A stretch of DNA of 64,000 bases, from NCBI RefSeq assembly GCF_009914755.1, contig NC_060932.1; one strand, written 5' to 3'. The stretch's first letter is position 1. Each line of letters starts with the position of its first letter. The notes beneath the pieces were generated by a model. It was given only the letters and a program-made list of their open reading frames with translations, ran no database searches and was not told the origin of the DNA. Origin of the DNA: the human T2T-CHM13v2.0 reference genome, Homo sapiens. Shown piece after piece: positions 1 to 42,789 of this stretch. The translations under genes were made by a program, and so were the position numbers.

Positions 1-121
1 TGAAAGTTAAATTTCATTTAGACACAAATCAGTTTTTAAAATAGCAACTGTTCACCGCAAATATTTATGGTATTTGTTTATAATAAATATATTTAAATTT
101 ATTTTTACTAAAAATATACAG

Positions 122-370
122 AGGCATCTACAGACTTGTCATTGCTGCTTTGGACAAGTGGGGATTGTGGAGGAATTGACAATCTAGAAGTGTTTAGAAA
201 GAAAAGTATTGTCAATATCAGCTTCTTTTAACCTTTTGAATAGTTCTGCTAATAAATTATTCTCCATATCTAGTCTAATCTTTCATATTACAGTCATTTT
301 CGTTTTATTCTGCCACGAGTAATAGGCAGCTGATTAATATATTCTGTGAAAGAACTCTTCTCATCTGAAG
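122..370 (+). pseudogene. Relic exon A (249 nt, phase 1->1)
   Basis: tacag|AG...GAAG|gtaatt; reads ASTDLSLLLWTSGDCGGIDNLEVFRKKSIVNISFF*PFE*FC**IILHI*SNLSYYSHFRFILPRVIGS*LIYSVKELFSSE (6 stops). Confidence 0.45.
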
Positions 371-624
371 GTAATTCTCTACTAATCTTTATTACCACAA
401 AGATCCCGTCTTTGTACACATGAAATTAGTAACTGCATTTTCAACATGATGAACCATTTGAAATTTACATTTTCTGTAAAGAAAATAGTGCCTGCACGTT
501 GTTTCACTACCTTTTCCCCTTCAAACCTCCTCCCCGTCAGTCACTGGATTAGTGTTTACTCTAGCAATTATATTTGTGTAATAAGTAATTCAGTGCCTCT
601 TATAGCTGTCTGCCTTAGTTTCAC

Positions 625-916
625 TTTTTTTTTTTTTTTTTGAGACAGTCTCGTTCTGTCACCCAGGCTGGAGTGCAGTGACGTGATCGCAGCTCACTGC
701 AACCTCCTCCCGGGTTCAAGCGATTCTTGTGCCTCAGCCTCTGAGTAGCTGGGACTACAGGCATGTGCCACCATGCCTGGCTAATTTTGTATTTTTAGTA
801 GAGATGGGGTTTCACCATGTTGGCCAGGCTGGTCTGAAACTCCTGGCCTCAAGTGATCTACCCGCCTCAGCCTCCCGAAATGCTGGGATTACAGGCATGA
901 GCCACTGAGCCTGGCC
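625..916 (-). mobile_element. AluS-type SINE (donor of the copy at 4812-4951)
   Basis: Dimeric Alu reverse complement, poly(T) 625-641, TSD-like agtttcacttt / agtatcacttt. Confidence 0.95.
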
Positions 917-1261
917 AGTATCACTTTATTTTTTCAAAATTTTAATAACTTCTTTCCAAGATTTTATATTTGTTAAGCACATTGCCAATCCTTAGTTATT
1001 TATAAACTTCAACTTAAATGTACTGATAATCCCATTACAGCAGGCAGTTGCCTACAGCTATTACCTTTATTTCTTCTTTAGCAGTACCTTAGTTTGATCT
1101 GATAGTGGCAAGGATCCCTCTTCCTCAAAGAGATTAGGACCTTACCCCAACTCCAGAGGTTGCACCTTCATTGATCTGAAACAGAAGTGGTAGTTTAATT
1201 CTGTATAGTCTGATTAGTACGAGGCAGAACTTTTTGCAGTGAAGGAAATCAACCATCCGTT

Positions 1262-1343
1262 CTGTCTCTCTATTGTGGTAGCTACTAACCATATGTGATA
1301 TTGAGTACTTGATATGTGACTACTGCAATTGAGAAATTGAATG
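1262..1343. mobile_element. MER3/MER33-like hAT-Charlie fragment
   Basis: ggtagctactaaccatatgtg...ttgagtacttgatatgtgactactgcaattgagaaattgaat resembles recalled MER3/MER33 consensus. Confidence 0.55.
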
Positions 1344-1379
1344 AAATGAACAGAACCCTACTGAGAAGGGCTTTCCTTT

Positions 1380-1700
1380 CAAATTAAAAAATCAGAGCTT
1401 TGTGTGGTAACAGTCATTGCCTCTTTCTCCTCTTTCTGGCCAACAGCATGCCTAAAGGTGCAGCTGCCATCAAACAACCATGAAACAGCAAATGTGAGAA
1501 TGAAAGTTACATTTCAGAGATAGAACTGAAGGAGGATTAAGGGGATCCTGGGTCCCTGATATGGCATTGTTGAACACCCAAATCAAGATGAGCAATTGCC
1601 AAACTCCCCAATTATTAAATGAGAAAAAATAAACTCCAGATTGTTTAAGACACTGTTTGGTTTCCTGTTACTTTAGCCATGTATGTTTCTGACTAATATA
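1380..1700 (+). mobile_element. Old MLT1-type MaLR LTR remnant
   Basis: gcagctgccatc, cctgggtccctga, and 3' end aaataaac...ttgtttaagacactg...tgactaatata. Confidence 0.55.
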
Positions 1701-3089
1701 TCTGCTTATCTACTCTTCAACATTTTTTAAGTGTAAAACTCTTATTTTAGACATGTCAGGGATGCTATTTCAGAATCTAATCATTTAAAGCAAGGAGATA
1801 ATTCCATATAACGAAAGAAGTAATGTCTTAGTGCAGCTCAGCTCCTAGCATTCTAAGCCAACAGAGGTGAAAAGGGGACATATTTACACAGCTTAACCAT
1901 AAAAATAATACTGATTTGGGGGCACAAGAGGATGTAGAGAAAAATATAAAGGGAAGACCAGTATTTTAGTATGCTGCAAGCATATACTTCAACTTTTTAT
2001 TGACAAATATTTCAATTAATCTTTTTGTCTTATATACTGTAGCCCACATATCATCAAAGTAACTTCATTTTAATTCATTTCATAGAACCATAGGATTTTA
2101 GACAGGACTTTGGAGATGATTTTGTTGTACTTCATTTTAAGATGAGGATATCTGAGGTTCAGATAAATTAACCTCTTGTGTTACAGAGCATGGACCAGAC
2201 CCAGGATGTCAGGGGTTTCCAAGTCAGCATTTTTTCTGGTATCCTCTGCTGCATCTGGCTATCTTGTGATGTTCTAATTTTAGAGTGACAAAAATGAGAA
2301 CCAGTTATATGCAAGGATCATAGCTTGTTAGCAGATCAGGGATTATAATTCAGATGTTCTGATTTGTAAAACAATTTTTAATTAAATAAGGTAAATTATA
2401 TTTTAATTTGAATTGTGTTTAAATTATTTAAGATGTTATTTCATTTACAGTAAATATGAGAACGATTTCAAAATATTTAGAATATAATATAATGCCATTT
2501 TGCTCCCTCCCCCTCTGCCCCCATCATTAAAACTCTTGCTGTTTTCCATTTATTGGCTCTTAACATGGCCTTTGAGGGTCTATATAGTATCAGAATCAAG
2601 GAGAGAATTTAGATTTCTTTAATTGTAAATGATGTCCTTCCACTTTCCCACACTTTGAATTCAGGTACACTTAAAGTCCATGAAGTTGTTATACTTCCTT
2701 CTTCTACAAACATTCAGCATCTACAAAATAATATATGATGAAAGACTAAATGCGTTCCTCTTAAGATTAGGAACAAGATAAGGATATGCACACTCACCAC
2801 TCCTATTCAGTGTAGTACTTGATATCCAGTGCAATAATATAAGAAAAGGGGATAAAAGGCACAGAGATTGGAAATGAAAAAATTAACTTTATATTTGCAT
2901 TTAACATTATTTTCTACATACAAAGTTCTAAGAAATCTCCAAGAACTTACAAGAACTAGTGAATTTAGTAAGATCACAGAATACAAGATCAACCACACAA
3001 AAATCAAATTGTATTTCTATATGCTAATACCATTTACAATTTCAAAATGTAATACTAAGTATAAATCCAACAAAACACCTACAGGACCT

Positions 3090-3492
3090 TGATGAAGAGT
3101 CAAACTCTAAAATATTGAAGAGATTTATTTTGAGCCAAATATGAGTGACTAATGGGCTGTGACACAGCCCTCAAGAGATCCTGAGAACATGTGCCTAAGG
3201 TGATTGGGTTACAACTTGGCTTTATACATTCTAGAGAGACGTAAGACATCAATCAATACAGGTAACATGTACATTGATTTAGCTTAGGAGAGTGGGACAA
3301 CTGGAAGTGGGGACTTCCAGGTCATAGACAAATCCAAAGATTTTCTGATTGGGAGTCGGTTATTATTGATAGAAACTGGTGTCTGGGATATGATAAGGGG
3401 TTGTGGAGACCAAGGTTTTATGCAGATGAATCTTCCAGGTAGCAGTCTTCAGAGAGATAATAGATTGTAAATGTCTAGACTTAAAGAGTCTG
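3090..3492 (-). mobile_element. MER4-family ERV1 LTR (partial)
   Basis: aagagtcaaactct...gaagagatttattttgagccaaatatgagtgac matches the reverse complement of the recalled MER4 LTR 3' end. Confidence 0.8.
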
Positions 3493-4009
3493 AAACATAA
3501 CCATTTATATGGATTGGAAGACAATATATTAACTAAGTTGCCCCCAAGTTGATTTATGGGTTTAATACAAGTCCTATAAAAATCCCAGAAGGATTCTTTG
3601 TTGAATGATTCTGATTCTAAAGAATCGGAATAAAGCTCATTCTAAAATACATTAAAAAGCAAAGGAACTAGAATATCCTAAGCAATTTGAAAACAATGTA
3701 GTTGGAGGAATCACACTACCAGATATTAAGACACATAAGTACAGTAATCGGGACTGTGATATTGGTACTGATTGTGTGGTTTTGGTAGTGATAGACACAT
3801 AGCTCAGTGATAGACGCAGAATAGAGTACAGAAATAGACCTACACAAGTATGAAAAACTAACGTCTGACAAAGGTACATAAGCAATTCAATAGATGAATT
3901 GTGTTAGAAAAATTGAATTTCGAACAAAGGGTGTTGGAACAATTGAATAGTCATAGCTAAGAAAGAAAAACCTCAACCTCAACCTTCTACCTTATAAAAA
4001 CTTTTACTC

Positions 4010-4300
4010 CCTAGGCATGGGGGGCTCGTGCCTATAATTTCAGCTAGTTGGCAGGCTGAGGTGGGAGAACAGCTTGAGGCCAAGAGTTTGAAACTAGGGT
4101 AGGCAACATAGTGAGAACCTCTCTCTAAAATTTTAAGAAATTAGCTGAGCATGGTGGCATGTACTTTCAGTCCCAGCTACTTGGGAGGCTGAGGCAGAAG
4201 GATCACTTGAGACCAGGAGTTTGAGGCTGTGGTGAGCTGTCATCACACCACTGCACTCTAGCCTAGGCAAGAGAGCAAAACCTTGTCTCTAAAACAAAAA
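4010..4300 (+). mobile_element. AluJ-type SINE
   Basis: Diverged dimeric Alu with gaggatcacttgag motif. Confidence 0.9.
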
Positions 4301-4811
4301 TTAACTCAAAATGGGTCATGTTCTTACTGTAACATATAAAACTGAAACTTAGAAGCAAACAGGAAATCTTGAGCAAGGGTTAGGCCAACTGACATTAAAA
4401 TTCCTTAAAAAAACATTGAATTTTGTAAAAAATAAAAACATTTTGTAGAAGACCCTGTTAAAGAGGATGAAAAGGCAAGCCATAAACGGAAAATATTTGC
4501 AAGCACATGTTCAACAGAAAACTTATGTCCAGAATATATAAAGAACTTGCAAAATTTATTAGGAAGAAATAATCCAATTAGAAAATGGGCAAAAGACTTG
4601 AACAGACACTTCATCAAAGAAGCTGTACAGATAATAAGCACATGAAAAGATGTTCAGCATCATTATTAATAGGGAAGTGCAAATTATAACAAGATACCAT
4701 TGAACACCTATTAGAATAGCTGGTAATAACACATGCTGAGATATGCAGAGCCACTTTCAGACATTTTGTCTGAAATTGGAAATTTTACATTTCCACCACA
4801 GGTTTAGCTAC

Positions 4812-4951
4812 CTGGGAGGTGGAGGTTGCAGTGAGCTGAGATCACGCCACTATACTCCAGCCTGGGTGACAGAACGAGGCTGTCTCAAAAAAAAAAAAAA
4901 AAAAAGTGAAACTAAGGCAGACAGCTGTAAGAGTTACTGAATTACTTATTA
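4812..4951 (+). repeat. Inverted copy of ~575-713 (Alu 3' end + A-tail + unique flank) with 15-bp target duplication
   Basis: Reverse complement aligns to 575-713; CACAGGTTTAGCTAC at 4797-4811 and 4952-4966. Confidence 0.92.
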
Positions 4952-5288
4952 CACAGGTTTAGCTACACTGGAAATCAGTTTGTCATACACTTTTATATTA
5001 CAACTGTCATGCACCTTTTATTGGGAGAGTTTATCACTTTAATTATATTTTCAGGTGATTATCTGTCTCTCTTAGTAGATTCTTAAGTTGCATGAGGGCA
5101 GAGACCCTATATGTTTTTGTCCATGTTTACCTTTTTAGTTTCTAGCATGATGCTTGCATATGGTATGTATTTGAATGAATTAAAAATACTGTGCACATTT
5201 AGGTATAGTTTATTTAACAAACCTTACTTCCAGAAGTAGCTTAATTCCACTTCTTCACTTAGTTCCCTACTAAAAGAAACTGCAATCA

Positions 5289-5987
<699 letters not shown>

Positions 5988-6288
5988 TTTCAAATAGACT
6001 GTATTTTGAAAACAATGATTGAAAGAAGCAAATGATTTCATGGAGATCTGCATGTTACTTTGTTTCTTACATTGTGATTGTGTGTGGCATTTTTTAAGTT
6101 ATCCCCTCTTCTGATTTATATGTTTTCCCCCATCTCCTATTCTATTTTTTTGGTGGGGAGCAACAATATTCTCCCTAGATGCTATAGTAAAGAACTGAAT
6201 TACCCATGTTTGTTTTGTATATTGAATATCTTTCTCTTAATAATTTTAAAATTAGTACAGAGAATTATACTATTATTTTCTTTCTCAG

Positions 6289-12281: not shown

Positions 12282-12763
<482 letters not shown>

Positions 12764-12959
12764 TAAGTTTTAGGGTACATGTGCACAACGTGCAGGTTTG
12801 TTACATATGTATACATCTGCCATGTTGGTGTGCTGCACCCATTAACTCATCATTTAGCATTAGGTATATCTCCTAATGCTATCCCTCCCCCCTCCCCCCA
12901 CCCCACAACAGTCCCCAGTGTGTGATGTTCCCCTTCCTGTGTCCACGTGTTCTCATTGT

Positions 12960-16799
<3,840 letters not shown>

Positions 16800-27806: not shown

Positions 27807-30534
27807 CGAAAGTCAAATAAATTCTAAGATTAAGATTAAGAACTTCCCTTCATCAAAAATCACCATAAAGTGAAAAGATAAACCACTGGGAGATGATACT
27901 TGCAATATATATAACAAACAAGTGATTAGTGTCTCTCTAGAATATATATATGTATATAATGTGTATAATGTATATAATATATACATAAAATATATAATTA
28001 TGCATAAATGTAATACATATAACTTGCAATATATATAACCAAGGTATTAGTGTCTCTCTCCAATTAATACATACATATTTTATATATATAATGTATATAT
28101 GCACAAAAATATATAATTATACATAAAAATGTTATATAATCATATGTAACATTTTTCTTATGAATTAAAATAGAGAAATGGACAAATTCAACTTATTTCA
28201 AACTGAACTTACTATCTTCTTCCAGAGAGCAGCTCCACCTACTAACTCAGGTGAAAAAACCTCCAAATTATCTTAAACATCCTTCTAAATTATCTTAAAC
28301 ATCTTCCTTTGCATGCCTGTAGCCAATTAATCTCCAACTTTTGGTGATTCTATATCTGAATTGTTTCCTAAATTGTCCCCTTTTCTTCTAGTTCCACTGA
28401 CACTAACTTGGTTCAAATCTTCGGATACATATTCCCTTTAGCCTAGGGAAATACAATTCTAATTGATTTCCCTCTTCTTCCTTCATTATTCATTCTTTTT
28501 GCAGTGCCAACAGAAAGTTGTTTTTTGTTTTTTTAACACAGAACAAGCTTGTCATTCTTCTATTCAAAAATTCACCATGGTCTATAAATTTTGACTCTTC
28601 ATTTTTCAGTTTTATCAAATTATGCATACATATAGCTTAAAGAGTCATGGCCACTACTATTACTACTGCTATAACCATTTGGGTTCTCATAATGAATTTC
28701 CTTAGGGGTTTCCAGTGTCTTCTGATCAAACGAAAGAGATAGATAAAGATTTTCACAGTCCATTTTAAAATTTTTCATGAGAATTTCCTTGTCTGTTTAT
28801 CTTGGTCTGCTATTTGAAGGGCTTAGGATGCCTTTCCTTGTCTTCTCTATTCTGCCTCAGGGACAACTTAAGTCCTATGTAATTAGTTTTGATAATACTT
28901 TATATCAAAGCATATAACTATATGACTTAATTTATTACATACTTGGCTTTATTTAACTATTTCATATTTATTATTATTATCTCTTCAGCGACTTCCCAGG
29001 CCTATAAAATGCCATCTGAAGTAACTGCTTTCAAAATTTTCTTTCTGAATATTTTTATAATGTCCAGCACCATGGGTTAATCCAGTAACATGAATTATAG
29101 ATACTTAAATAACATATTAATTGGTCTAAATTTTAGGTGAATACATAAAGGAAGGAAGAAACTCAATCTTCCAGTAATATATACAGTTTTTGGAAATATA
29201 AATGCTGCATGGCTGATCATGCTATTTTTCTACTCATCCTTTCTTCCCTCCTCAAGACATTTTCTCCAAGAAGTCTTTTTCAAAACTTCGCTTTATGGTG
29301 GTTTTGGAAAAAATAAAATAAAGCAGGTTGACTCAGGGGTGGCAGAAAAGAAACCTTTAGCCAGCCAAAAAAAAAAAAAAGTCTCCCTTACTCCCTCAGC
29401 AGAGTTGGATTCCCAAATAGTCACAAATCAACAACAGTTAATGAGGCTGTTCTTACCACTAATAGTGCTTTACATTGCAGGGATTTCTGGTGGATCATTT
29501 GGCATTTTCATTTCCTTGACATATGCAGAAGGCATTTAAAGTTGTCAGATTAAAGATATTTCTATTACTTTAGACTTCTTGGAAATCTCAAGTGAAAAAG
29601 TACCATCATGGCACATGGAGGAAAACTAAATCTCTCCCTTTCCTAGTTTAGCTAATTTTTGTTGTTGTTATTGTTTCAACTTCAGATATAGTTGGGAAAA
29701 TATGTGTTTATTTTAAAATTAGCAATATGTGTTTATTTTAAAATTTGAAACAATTACTTTAAATATGGATTATTTAAAAGTTTTGCTAATTAAAATAAGG
29801 TATCAACACAGTGAATTTTCAGTATTTAAAAAATTAAGGTATTAACTGTACCCACATTCAAGATAAAAAAGGAAGAGATTCTGCTAAAATGTAGAATTTC
29901 GACTGATGGATAAAAACATCAGAAAACACTCTGGAATAAAATTCTGTTCATAGGCTGTGGTTACAAGTGCCTATTTTTAAACAACTTTATTGAGATATAA
30001 CTGATACACAAAAAACTGCACATATTTCATATACACAATTTAATGAGTTTGGACAAACGCATATACCCTTGAAATCATCACTACAGTCAAAGTAGTTATC
30101 ACATCCATCACCTCCAAAAGTTTCCCTATGCTCTTTTTTGTTTGTTTTTGTAGTAAGCACACTTAACCTGTGATCTACCCTCTTAACAAAATTTTTACGT
30201 GCACAACACAGTATTGTTAGTTGTAGGCACTGTGTTGTAGAGCACATCTCTATAACTTATTCATCTTGCATAACTGAAACTTTATACTCATTGACAACTC
30301 CCAATTTCCTCCTAACCCCATCCCCTGTCAACTACCATTCTACTCTCTTTCTTTGAGATTATTTTAGAAACCTTATATAAGTGGAATCATGTAGTATTTG
30401 TCCTTCCGTGACTGACTTCTTTCACTTATCATAGTGTCCTCAAAGTCATCTAAATTTGTTGCATTTGGCAGATTTCCTTCTTTTTAAAGGCTGAATTGTA
30501 TTCCATTGTATGTATTAAATATATACCACAATTT

Positions 30535-41143: not shown

Positions 41144-42789
<1,646 letters not shown>

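What the first reader, a model, noticed from the sequence alone, without database searches (positions are those of the whole stretch)
4797..4966. Local inverted copy of an Alu 3' end plus about 47 bp of unique flank, with a 15-bp target duplication
Seen: 4812-4955 is the reverse complement of 575-713. It includes the unique flank beyond the donor Alu's tail (gtgaaactaaggcagacagct...gaattacttattacaca) and shares non-consensus Alu features with the donor (gagacag(t/c)ctcgttctg). It sits between perfect CACAGGTTTAGCTAC repeats and has no new poly(A). There is CACA microhomology at the right junction and about 2 bp (AC) at the left. Inference: either a microhomology-primed reverse-transcribed Alu read-through (a 3'-transduction-like event, considered rare for Alu), or a templated insertion from nearby DNA/RNA during break repair. 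The 4.2-kb distance favours local templating. Several mismatches show the event is old.
Basis: partly seen in the sequence, partly recalled or inferred. Interest (0 to 1): 0.7.

Follow-up and report, generated by a model that had tools for sequence, protein, structure and literature searches.

The report
Local inverted templated insertion mimicking retrotransposition
A 140-base piece of DNA (the end of an Alu repeat plus its unique neighbouring sequence) was copied backwards into a site 4 kb away millions of years ago, most likely by a DNA polymerase that briefly switched templates, which is an ordinary though tidy example of a known mutation type.

Summary
Window 4810-4955 (+) is the reverse complement of 575-715, with 132 of 141 aligned bases identical, one 3-nt gap and one 2-nt gap. 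It holds the last ~73 nt of a minus-strand Alu, its A-run, and 46-50 nt of unique flank, including that Alu's own target-site duplication. The flank occurs only at these two places in the whole T2T genome. The insert lies between perfect 15-bp direct repeats. It sits in an old L1 fragment that becomes colinear with its paralogues only when 4812-4966 is removed.

The direction is donor to copy. The age is roughly 15-33 Myr.

It has no terminal poly(A) and no L1 endonuclease motif in either orientation. It stops about 90 nt short of the donor's first Pol III terminator. No other offspring exist. The junctions carry 2-nt and 4-nt microhomologies.

Best reading (about 0.7): a two-step microhomology-mediated template switch (MMBIR/FoSTeS-like or synthesis-dependent end joining) that copied nearby DNA. 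An RNA/L1 "internal priming" Alu transduction is not excluded (about 0.15). This is a known kind of event and I expect no function. Interest is low to moderate.

The parts
642..916 (-). Donor: full-length Alu in antisense orientation inside the EMC2 3'UTR. Only its last ~73 nt (642-715) were copied.
   Evidence: EMC2 last exon reaches 1653 (hub annotation). The AluS-like label is my recollection and was not tested.
625..641 (-). Donor Alu A-tail (T17 on the + strand), copied as A19.
575..624 (-). Donor unique 3' flank that was copied. Positions 617-624 are the donor Alu's 3' target-site duplication. Homology to the copy stops at 575-578 (the CACA is ambiguous).
917..927 (-). Donor Alu's 5' target-site duplication copy (AAAGTGATACT, against AAAGTGAAACT after the tail).
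4797..4811 (+). Left copy of the 15-bp duplication CACAGGTTTAGCTAC. Its last 2 nt (AC) are also homologous to the donor.
4812..4886 (+). Copied Alu 3' end, starting at about position 204 of the 275-nt Alu body.
4887..4905 (+). Copied internal A-run (A19). It is not terminal.
4906..4955 (+). Copied unique flank: 46 nt unambiguous, plus CACA shared with the right duplication copy.
4952..4966 (+). Right copy of the 15-bp duplication.
4436..4985 (+). Old L1 (3' part of ORF2) fragment that was the target, interrupted by 4812-4966.

Best explanation
A DNA-templated insertion made by two microhomology-mediated template switches. This is MMBIR/FoSTeS-like replication, or equivalently synthesis-dependent microhomology end joining at a break.

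Inferred steps:
1. A growing or resected + strand 3' end, ending ...GGTTTAGCTAC, left its template inside an old L1 fragment.
2. Its terminal AC paired with GT at 714-715 on the + strand 4.1 kb upstream. That strand could be the same strand folded back, the lagging-strand template or the sister chromatid. A polymerase then copied leftwards from 713 to about 575. This synthesised the Alu 3' end, the A-run and the unique flank in inverted orientation.
3. The new end ...TTATTACACA re-annealed through CACA to the original template 15 nt behind the departure point. Synthesis resumed there, so GGTTTAGCTAC was copied a second time.

The net gain is 155 bp. The event is old (about 15-33 Myr) and I expect it to be functionless.

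Shown: the anatomy, the direction, the uniqueness of the flank, the microhomologies and the absence of retrotransposition hallmarks. Inferred: that the template was DNA, and the order of the steps.
For: - The donor is retained and lies only 4,094 nt away in inverted orientation. Inverted orientation is what copying the opposite or folded-back strand produces.
- The junction microhomologies are 2 nt and 4 nt. Under a simple random-junction formula of my own, the joint chance is about 0.0024. MMBIR junctions are described as 2-5 bp, with inverted segments and nearby inverted repeats (PMC2621351, abstract and passages read).
- There is no terminal poly(A). None of the 8 possible first-strand nick positions resembles 5'-TTTT/A-3', and the primers carry only 2-4 T in their last 10 nt.
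- The copy ends 46-50 nt past the A-tail, whereas the first T4 Pol III terminator is 139 nt past it.
- The copy begins at Alu position ~204. In the truncation table of PMC4666360 (passages read) the classes end at 171 bp from the Alu start.
- No other copy of the donor flank exists in the genome, so the donor shows no sign of being a transducing source.
- 0 of 118,489 full-length AluY showed a confirmed transduction (preprint 10.1101/2024.04.29.591526, parts 1-2 of 3 read).
- A retrocopy landing within +/-5 kb of its source by chance has probability of about 3e-6 (my arithmetic).
- Inverted templated insertions with microhomology are known as germline variants, about 100 per person (PMC8421209, passages read).
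- Inverted Alu pairs flank the site, for example 785-916 against 5317-5448 at 86%. These could bring donor and target together; this last point is inference.
Against: - A 15-bp flanking duplication falls within the TSD range reported for L1/Alu insertions (5-45 bp, median 11, in the preprint read). A template-switch model explains that length only as happenstance.
- The insert has the polarity expected of a 5'-truncated cDNA of the Alu's Pol III read-through transcript (Alu 3' end, A-run, flank).
- Operationally defined MMB-TI events have templates within 100 bp (PMC8421209), not 4.1 kb.
- No hairpin stands out at the breakpoints: the best DNA fold, for 4765-4811, has z -1.23, and 20 of 200 shuffles fold as well.
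- Nothing in the sequence directly distinguishes a DNA template from an RNA template.
Confidence: 0.7

Rival explanations
1. RNA-mediated insertion by L1 ORF2p (or another reverse transcriptase) through internal priming. A staggered break or off-consensus nick exposed a bottom-strand 3' end ...CCTGTG. That end annealed to CACA in the unique 3' region of the donor Alu's Pol III read-through transcript. Reverse transcription ran through the flank and A-run and stopped about 73 nt into the Alu. The 5' end was joined by AC microhomology. This would amount to an Alu 3' transduction without a new poly(A). A variant uses EMC2 3'UTR RNA, primed from the opposite side.
For: - The 15-bp duplication is like a TSD.
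- The polarity of the insert fits a 5'-truncated cDNA of the read-through transcript.
- Alu RNA normally extends into its flank up to a T4 run (preprint).
- A class of TSD-flanked, tail-less Alu insertions without an endonuclease site, attributed to internal priming at staggered breaks, is described in PMC5402677 (passages read), citing Srikanta et al. 2009, which I could not read.
- The donor lies in an expressed 3'UTR (hub annotation).
Against: - Donor and copy are 4.1 kb apart. For a trans-acting RNA this has a chance of about 3e-6 (my arithmetic), and no cis mechanism is established.
- No 5'-TTTT/A-3'-like site exists at any of 8 candidate nicks.
- Priming would be internal, about 90 nt from the predicted RNA 3' end.
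- The truncation point (~204) lies outside the classes listed in PMC4666360.
- No other offspring carry this flank.
- 0 confirmed transductions among 118,489 AluY.
- There is no cluster of A-to-G changes that would suggest an edited RNA template: 2 of the 9 mismatches are copy-G against donor-A in Alu sense.
Confidence: 0.15
2. Capture of a free double-stranded DNA fragment by microhomology-mediated end joining at a break with 15-nt staggered ends. The fragment would be about 140 bp, released from the EMC2 3'UTR region, for example as a replication or repair by-product or a small extrachromosomal piece. The overhangs were then filled in.
For: Microhomology at both junctions and a flanking duplication. 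No retrotransposition hallmarks. DNA patches at breaks are documented (PMC5110952, parts 1-2 of 4 read).
Against: It needs both a free fragment and an independent 15-nt staggered break. The donor is intact, so the fragment would itself have to be a copy. Class 2 patch insertions are described as lacking duplications (PMC5110952). Proximity is not required by this model, so the 4.1-kb distance goes unexplained.
Confidence: 0.1
3. Remnant of a larger inverted segmental duplication later trimmed by deletions, or an assembly artefact.
For: None found.
Against: Homology stops exactly at 575 and 715 and is bounded by a perfect 15-bp duplication. A self-comparison of the window shows no further unique-sequence homology around either arm. 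The 961-bp region around the copy has no paralogous locus in the genome apart from L1 and Alu family hits. A divergence of 6.4% rules out an assembly duplicate.
Confidence: 0.02

Closest known systems
Microhomology-mediated templated insertions (MMBIR/FoSTeS; MMB-TI of Osia et al., PMC8421209; MMBIR model, PMC2621351)
   Same: The donor is retained and the template is nearby and inverted. Junction microhomologies are 2 and 4 nt. Synthesis returns to the original template. There is no poly(A) or endonuclease motif. Such events occur as germline or evolutionary variants.
   Different: The template is 4.1 kb away, not within 100 bp as in the MMB-TI search definition. The insert is longer (140 nt). 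The return behind the departure point gives a 15-bp duplication that looks like a TSD.
Internal-priming Alu/L1 insertions (as described in PMC5402677, citing Srikanta et al. 2009)
   Same: Flanking duplication, no 3' poly(A), no L1 endonuclease site, short complementarity between the target and an internal site of the template.
   Different: The described cases prime inside or just upstream of the A-tail of the element. Here priming would be in unique sequence downstream of the tail. The source is 4.1 kb away. An RNA intermediate is not shown.
L1/SVA-type 3' transduction and class 1 templated sequence insertion polymorphisms (PMC5110952)
   Same: Source-flank sequence is carried with the element. 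A duplication of at least 5 bp is present. The source locus is identifiable.
   Different: There is no terminal poly(A), no polyadenylation or termination signal at the end of the carried flank, and no 5'-TTTT/A-3' site. The donor is local, not distant.
Short-range template switch mutations (PMC5453318, PMC7954356; search listings and abstract starts only)
   Same: A transient switch to the opposite strand nearby, then a return, giving inverted templated sequence.
   Different: By the titles and abstract starts these are short-range events that produce mutation clusters. They are not described there as a 140-nt insertion from 4 kb away.

Membership tests
Classical L1 ORF2p TPRT insertion / Alu 3' transduction | Target-site duplication flanking the insert | tested here: met
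   Perfect 15-bp direct repeat 4797-4811 / 4952-4966. It is 9-15 bp if the junction microhomologies are assigned to the template.
Classical L1 ORF2p TPRT insertion / Alu 3' transduction | Poly(A) at the 3' end of the insert, next to the 3' duplication copy | tested here: not met
   The insert ends ...TTATTACACA. The only A-run (4887-4905) is internal and corresponds to the donor's own tail.
Classical L1 ORF2p TPRT insertion / Alu 3' transduction | First-strand nick at a 5'-TTTT/A-3'-like site (consensus as given in PMC5110952 and PMC3649969 abstracts) | tested here: not met
   All 5 candidate nicks for the Alu-sense orientation and all 3 for the opposite orientation read TGTG/GT, CTGT/GG, CCTG/TG, ACCT/GT, AACC/TG, AGCT/AC, GCTA/CA, CTAC/AC. 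By contrast the donor Alu's own site is A-rich and has a proper TSD.
Classical L1 ORF2p TPRT insertion / Alu 3' transduction | The transduced flank ends at the source's transcription termination signal (T4 or longer for Pol III; criterion of preprint 10.1101/2024.04.29.591526) | tested here: not met
   The first T4 on the Alu strand is 139 nt beyond the tail (+ strand 482-485). The copy stops at 46-50 nt.
Internal-priming retro-insertion | TSD present, poly(A) absent, complementarity between target end and an internal template site | tested here: met
   15-bp duplication, no tail, 4-nt CACA overlap. These features are equally predicted by DNA template switching.
Internal-priming retro-insertion | The template was RNA (reverse transcription) | not testable with these tools
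   The copied segment contains no intron, splice junction, non-templated tail or editing cluster that could tell RNA from DNA.
Microhomology-mediated templated insertion (MMBIR/FoSTeS-like) | The inserted sequence is a copy of nearby sequence and the donor is retained | tested here: met
   The donor is intact at 575-715, 4,094 nt from the copy. These are the only two occurrences in the genome.
Microhomology-mediated templated insertion (MMBIR/FoSTeS-like) | Microhomology (2-5 bp) at each switch junction | tested here: met
   AC (2 nt) on the left, CACA (4 nt) on the right. The lengths are approximate because both copies have since diverged by 6.4%.
Microhomology-mediated templated insertion (MMBIR/FoSTeS-like) | Template within 100 bp of the insertion (operational MMB-TI definition, PMC8421209) | tested here: not met
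   The distance is 4.1 kb. So I file it with the broader MMBIR/FoSTeS kind, not as an MMB-TI in the strict sense.
Class 2 templated sequence insertion (break patch, PMC5110952) | No target-site duplication | tested here: not met
   A 15-bp duplication is present.

The most novel reading that the evidence does not exclude
The insert is a true retrocopy of the donor Alu's Pol III read-through transcript. ORF2p, or another reverse transcriptase acting at a staggered break, primed by 4-nt microhomology in the unique region downstream of the A-tail. That would make it a fixed, datable example of Alu-driven 3' transduction without a new poly(A). A systematic screen found none of this class among 118,489 AluY, and its design (full-length AluY, a gap of more than 70 nt, a poly(A) tract) would have missed this case. 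The 4-kb proximity would then imply reuse of a locally retained nascent RNA.
Probability: 0.12. Interest if true: 0.6.

Novelty: new member of a known kind. Interest (0 to 1): 0.28.

Why it matters
The locus shows that a local template-switch copy can carry nearly all the marks used to call a retrotransposon transduction. It has an element 3' end, an A-run, source flank and a TSD-length duplication. Screens for Alu or SVA transduction, and classifiers of insertion mechanism, should therefore check donor distance, orientation, the terminal tail and the nick motif before calling an event RNA-mediated.

It also adds a mid-range example (140 nt copied from 4 kb away) to a class mostly catalogued at 100 bp or less, or at kilobase-to-megabase scale. 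I expect no effect on EMC2 or any other gene, because the copy is intergenic, 3.1 kb beyond the annotated gene end.

Tried and rejected
- **Empty site from L1 paralogues.** BLAST of the right flank against 10 L1 paralogues gave nothing colinear; its only match was one stray 51-column hit at E 0.002. A profile of those 10 gave only a weak colinear hit (E 0.56) across the insert. After in-silico excision of 4812-4966 the alignment ran through (241.1 to 248.4 bits). In the scan of excision offsets and lengths, only the exact 155-bp excision, or its 15-bp-shifted equivalent, reached the maximum. The gain is modest (about 7 bits), so this is supporting evidence, not proof.
- **Hairpins at the breakpoints.** None of 4 stretches folded better than shuffles at a notable level; the best was z -1.23. 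Rejected as evidence.
- **RNA-editing signature.** There is no cluster.
- **Larger duplication or paralogous locus.** None found.
- **Srikanta et al. 2009 on internal priming.** Not held, so I know it only through PMC5402677 and recollection.
- **Other primate genomes.** None were available (state that the genome has no relatives here), so the orthologous empty-site test could not be run.
- **Repeat library.** No RepeatMasker or Dfam library was available, so the Alu subfamily and L1 subfamily names are untested.
- **My own error.** One search's divergence figures used 10 mismatches by miscount; (9 mismatches) replaces them.

Full report
**1. Observation**

- The repeat finder on 1-6000 reports inverted pairs 625-710/4818-4903 (86 nt, 93%) and 575-641/4889-4955 (67 nt, 96%). 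It also reports a perfect 15-nt direct repeat at 4797-4811 and 4952-4966.
- A gapped local alignment merges the two inverted pairs into one segment: copy 4810-4955 (+) against donor 715-575 (-). It has 141 aligned pairs, 9 mismatches (93.6%), a 3-nt gap and a 2-nt A-run difference, A19 against T17. One search used 10 mismatches by my miscount, and one search replaces its divergence figures.
- The 50-nt flank with up to 3 mismatches occurs twice in the window, against 0.00 expected in 100 shuffles.
- The 15-mer with up to 2 mismatches occurs twice, against 0.09 expected; 1 of 100 shuffles reached two.

**2. Is the flank a common repeat?**

It is not.

- Searching the whole 3.1-Gb assembly with 4897-4966 returns 2 matches, the copy itself and the donor.
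- Searching with the donor side, 470-626, also returns 2 matches, itself and the copy. The homology ends at query position 106, which is window 575.

A self-comparison of the 64-kb window produced 419 non-self HSPs. The only one in which unique sequence beside an Alu is duplicated is this one. The other single-partner HSPs are L1-sized matches and one short tandem pair.

**3. Direction and anatomy**

The donor is a full-length minus-strand Alu (body 642-916, T17 at 625-641). It has its own target-site duplication, AAAGTGATACT upstream (917-927) against AAAGTGAAACT after the tail. According to the hub's annotation it lies inside the last exon (3'UTR) of EMC2, antisense to the gene.

The copy holds the last ~73 nt of the Alu body (from about position 204 of 275), the A-run, the donor's 3' TSD and a further ~40 nt of unique sequence. 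Because the copy contains the donor's TSD and adjoining unique DNA, the donor arrangement must have existed first. The second refutation condition is therefore not met.

I compared the donor and copy with 15 other Alu 3' ends from the window (15 of the Alu hits, chosen because they reach the 3' end).

- Donor and copy share an A that only 2 of 14 others have, and a 2-nt deletion seen in none of the others.
- Of the 6 mismatches in the Alu part, 2 substitutions and the 3-nt deletion are derived in the donor. Three substitutions are derived in the copy. One, a CpG site, is ambiguous (my reading).

Both copies have thus drifted about equally, as expected for neutral sequence.

**4. Target**

The insert sits in an old L1 fragment (3' part of ORF2).

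- Many L1 copies in the genome match 4400-4738 at 70-76% identity.
- A profile from 10 of them aligns to 4436-4722, and weakly (E 0.56) to 4956-4985 at a colinear position.
- When 4812-4966 is removed in silico, the alignment runs continuously to 4985 and the score rises from 241.1 to 248.4 bits.
- In a scan of 13 excision offsets and 9 excision lengths, only the exact 155-bp excision, or its equivalent shifted by the 15-bp repeat, gives the maximum.

This works as a proxy for the empty site: the L1 family has one copy of the duplicated 15-mer region. The gain is modest, so I treat it as supporting evidence only.

**5. Age**

The divergence is 9/141 = 6.4% (Jukes-Cantor 6.7%). Using substitution rates that I recall as the usual bracket (1.0-2.2e-9 per site per year), the event dates to about 15-33 Myr. 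The Poisson range is about 7-61 Myr. A 15-bp duplication remaining perfect at this divergence has probability 0.37, so it is unremarkable.

**6. Tests of the retrotransposition reading**

- There is no A-run at the 3' end of the insert.
- None of the 8 possible first-strand nick positions resembles 5'-TTTT/A-3' (5 for an Alu-sense RNA, 3 for an EMC2-sense RNA, allowing for the microhomology ambiguity). The would-be primers carry only 2-4 T in their last 10 nt. L1 RNPs prime efficiently with at least 4 matching terminal T, or need compensating T-richness (PMC3649969, abstract read).
- The first T4 Pol III terminator on the Alu strand is 139 nt past the tail, but the copy stops at 46-50 nt. Priming would therefore have been internal, about 90 nt from the RNA end.
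- The truncation point (~204) lies beyond the classes listed for 566 AluYa5/Yb8 insertions, which are 1-5, 7-45 and 55-171 bp from the start (PMC4666360, passages read).
- A systematic screen confirmed 0 Alu transductions among 118,489 full-length AluY in this same assembly (preprint 10.1101/2024.04.29.591526, parts 1-2 of 3 read). That screen's design would not have seen a truncated, tail-less AluS-type copy with a flank under 70 nt.
- A trans-acting RNA landing within +/-5 kb of its source has a chance of about 3e-6 (my arithmetic).

**7. What fits**

The features that fit the microhomology-mediated template-switch family are these:

- the donor is retained;
- the template is inverted and only 4,094 nt away;
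- the microhomologies are 2 nt (AC) and 4 nt (CACA), with a joint chance of about 0.0024 under a simple random-junction formula;
- synthesis returned to the original template 15 nt behind the departure point.

The MMBIR model describes 2-5-bp junction microhomology, inverted segments, and facilitation by nearby inverted repeats (PMC2621351, abstract and passages). Inverted templated insertions of at least 25 bp occur as roughly 100 germline variants per person, but there the template is searched only within 100 bp (PMC8421209, passages).

Here the target lies between two plus-strand Alus (4023-4320 and 5317-5630), both inverted relative to the donor Alu. The pair 785-916 / 5317-5448 is 86% complementary. 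Pairing of such Alus in single-stranded DNA could bring donor and target together, but that is inference.

Whether the switching 3' end came from a stalled fork or a resected break cannot be told from the sequence.

**8. Rivals**

- **Internal-priming retro-insertion.** This class is TSD-flanked, tail-less and has no endonuclease site. It is thought to act at staggered breaks (PMC5402677, passages). It predicts the same junction anatomy and cannot be excluded. I give it about 0.15, mainly because of the proximity argument and the lack of any other offspring.
- **Capture of a free DNA fragment at a staggered break.** About 0.1.
- **A trimmed segmental duplication or an assembly artefact.** Effectively excluded.

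In the TSIP scheme (PMC5110952, parts 1-2 of 4 read) the locus is a hybrid. It has the duplication of class 1, but the missing tail, missing motif and microhomology of class 2.

**9. Verdict**

It is a new example of a known kind of mutation. It is useful mainly as a caution for transduction screens. I expect no function: it lies 3.1 kb beyond the annotated end of EMC2.

I did not find this locus described in print. My literature searches were for mechanisms, not for the locus, so I make no claim that it is absent from the literature.

Noticed in passing
window 4436-4985: An old L1 fragment (3' part of ORF2, 70-76% identical to many genomic L1 copies) is not in the hub's list of masked stretches of 100 bases or more. 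It is the target of the insertion and appears to carry an internal deletion relative to its paralogues (profile positions about 313-330 are skipped).
   Followed up: partly
window 680-715 (donor Alu): After the copy was made, the donor Alu lost 3 nt between two GGAGG repeats and gained 2 substitutions. The copy keeps the older state, so the copy is a small 'fossil' of the donor at the time of the event.
   Followed up: yes
window 614-917 vs 4023-4320 and 5317-5630: The donor Alu is inverted relative to two Alus that bracket the insertion site. The best pair is 785-916 / 5317-5448, 86% complementary. This is a possible structural facilitator of the template switch, but it was not tested.
   Followed up: no
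window 27898-28008 and 28022-28127: Two adjacent ~110-nt stretches are about 80% identical in direct orientation, a local tandem duplication with no other partner in the window.
   Followed up: no
window 12738-14021 and 41148-42441: Two ~1.3-kb stretches inside masked repeats are 94.6% identical in the same orientation. They are presumably two copies of one fairly young L1 subfamily.
   Followed up: no
window 4777-4795: A 7-bp-stem hairpin (GGAAATT...) lies just left of the duplicated 15-mer. It is not better than shuffled sequence (z -1.23; 20 of 200 shuffles fold as well).
   Followed up: yes
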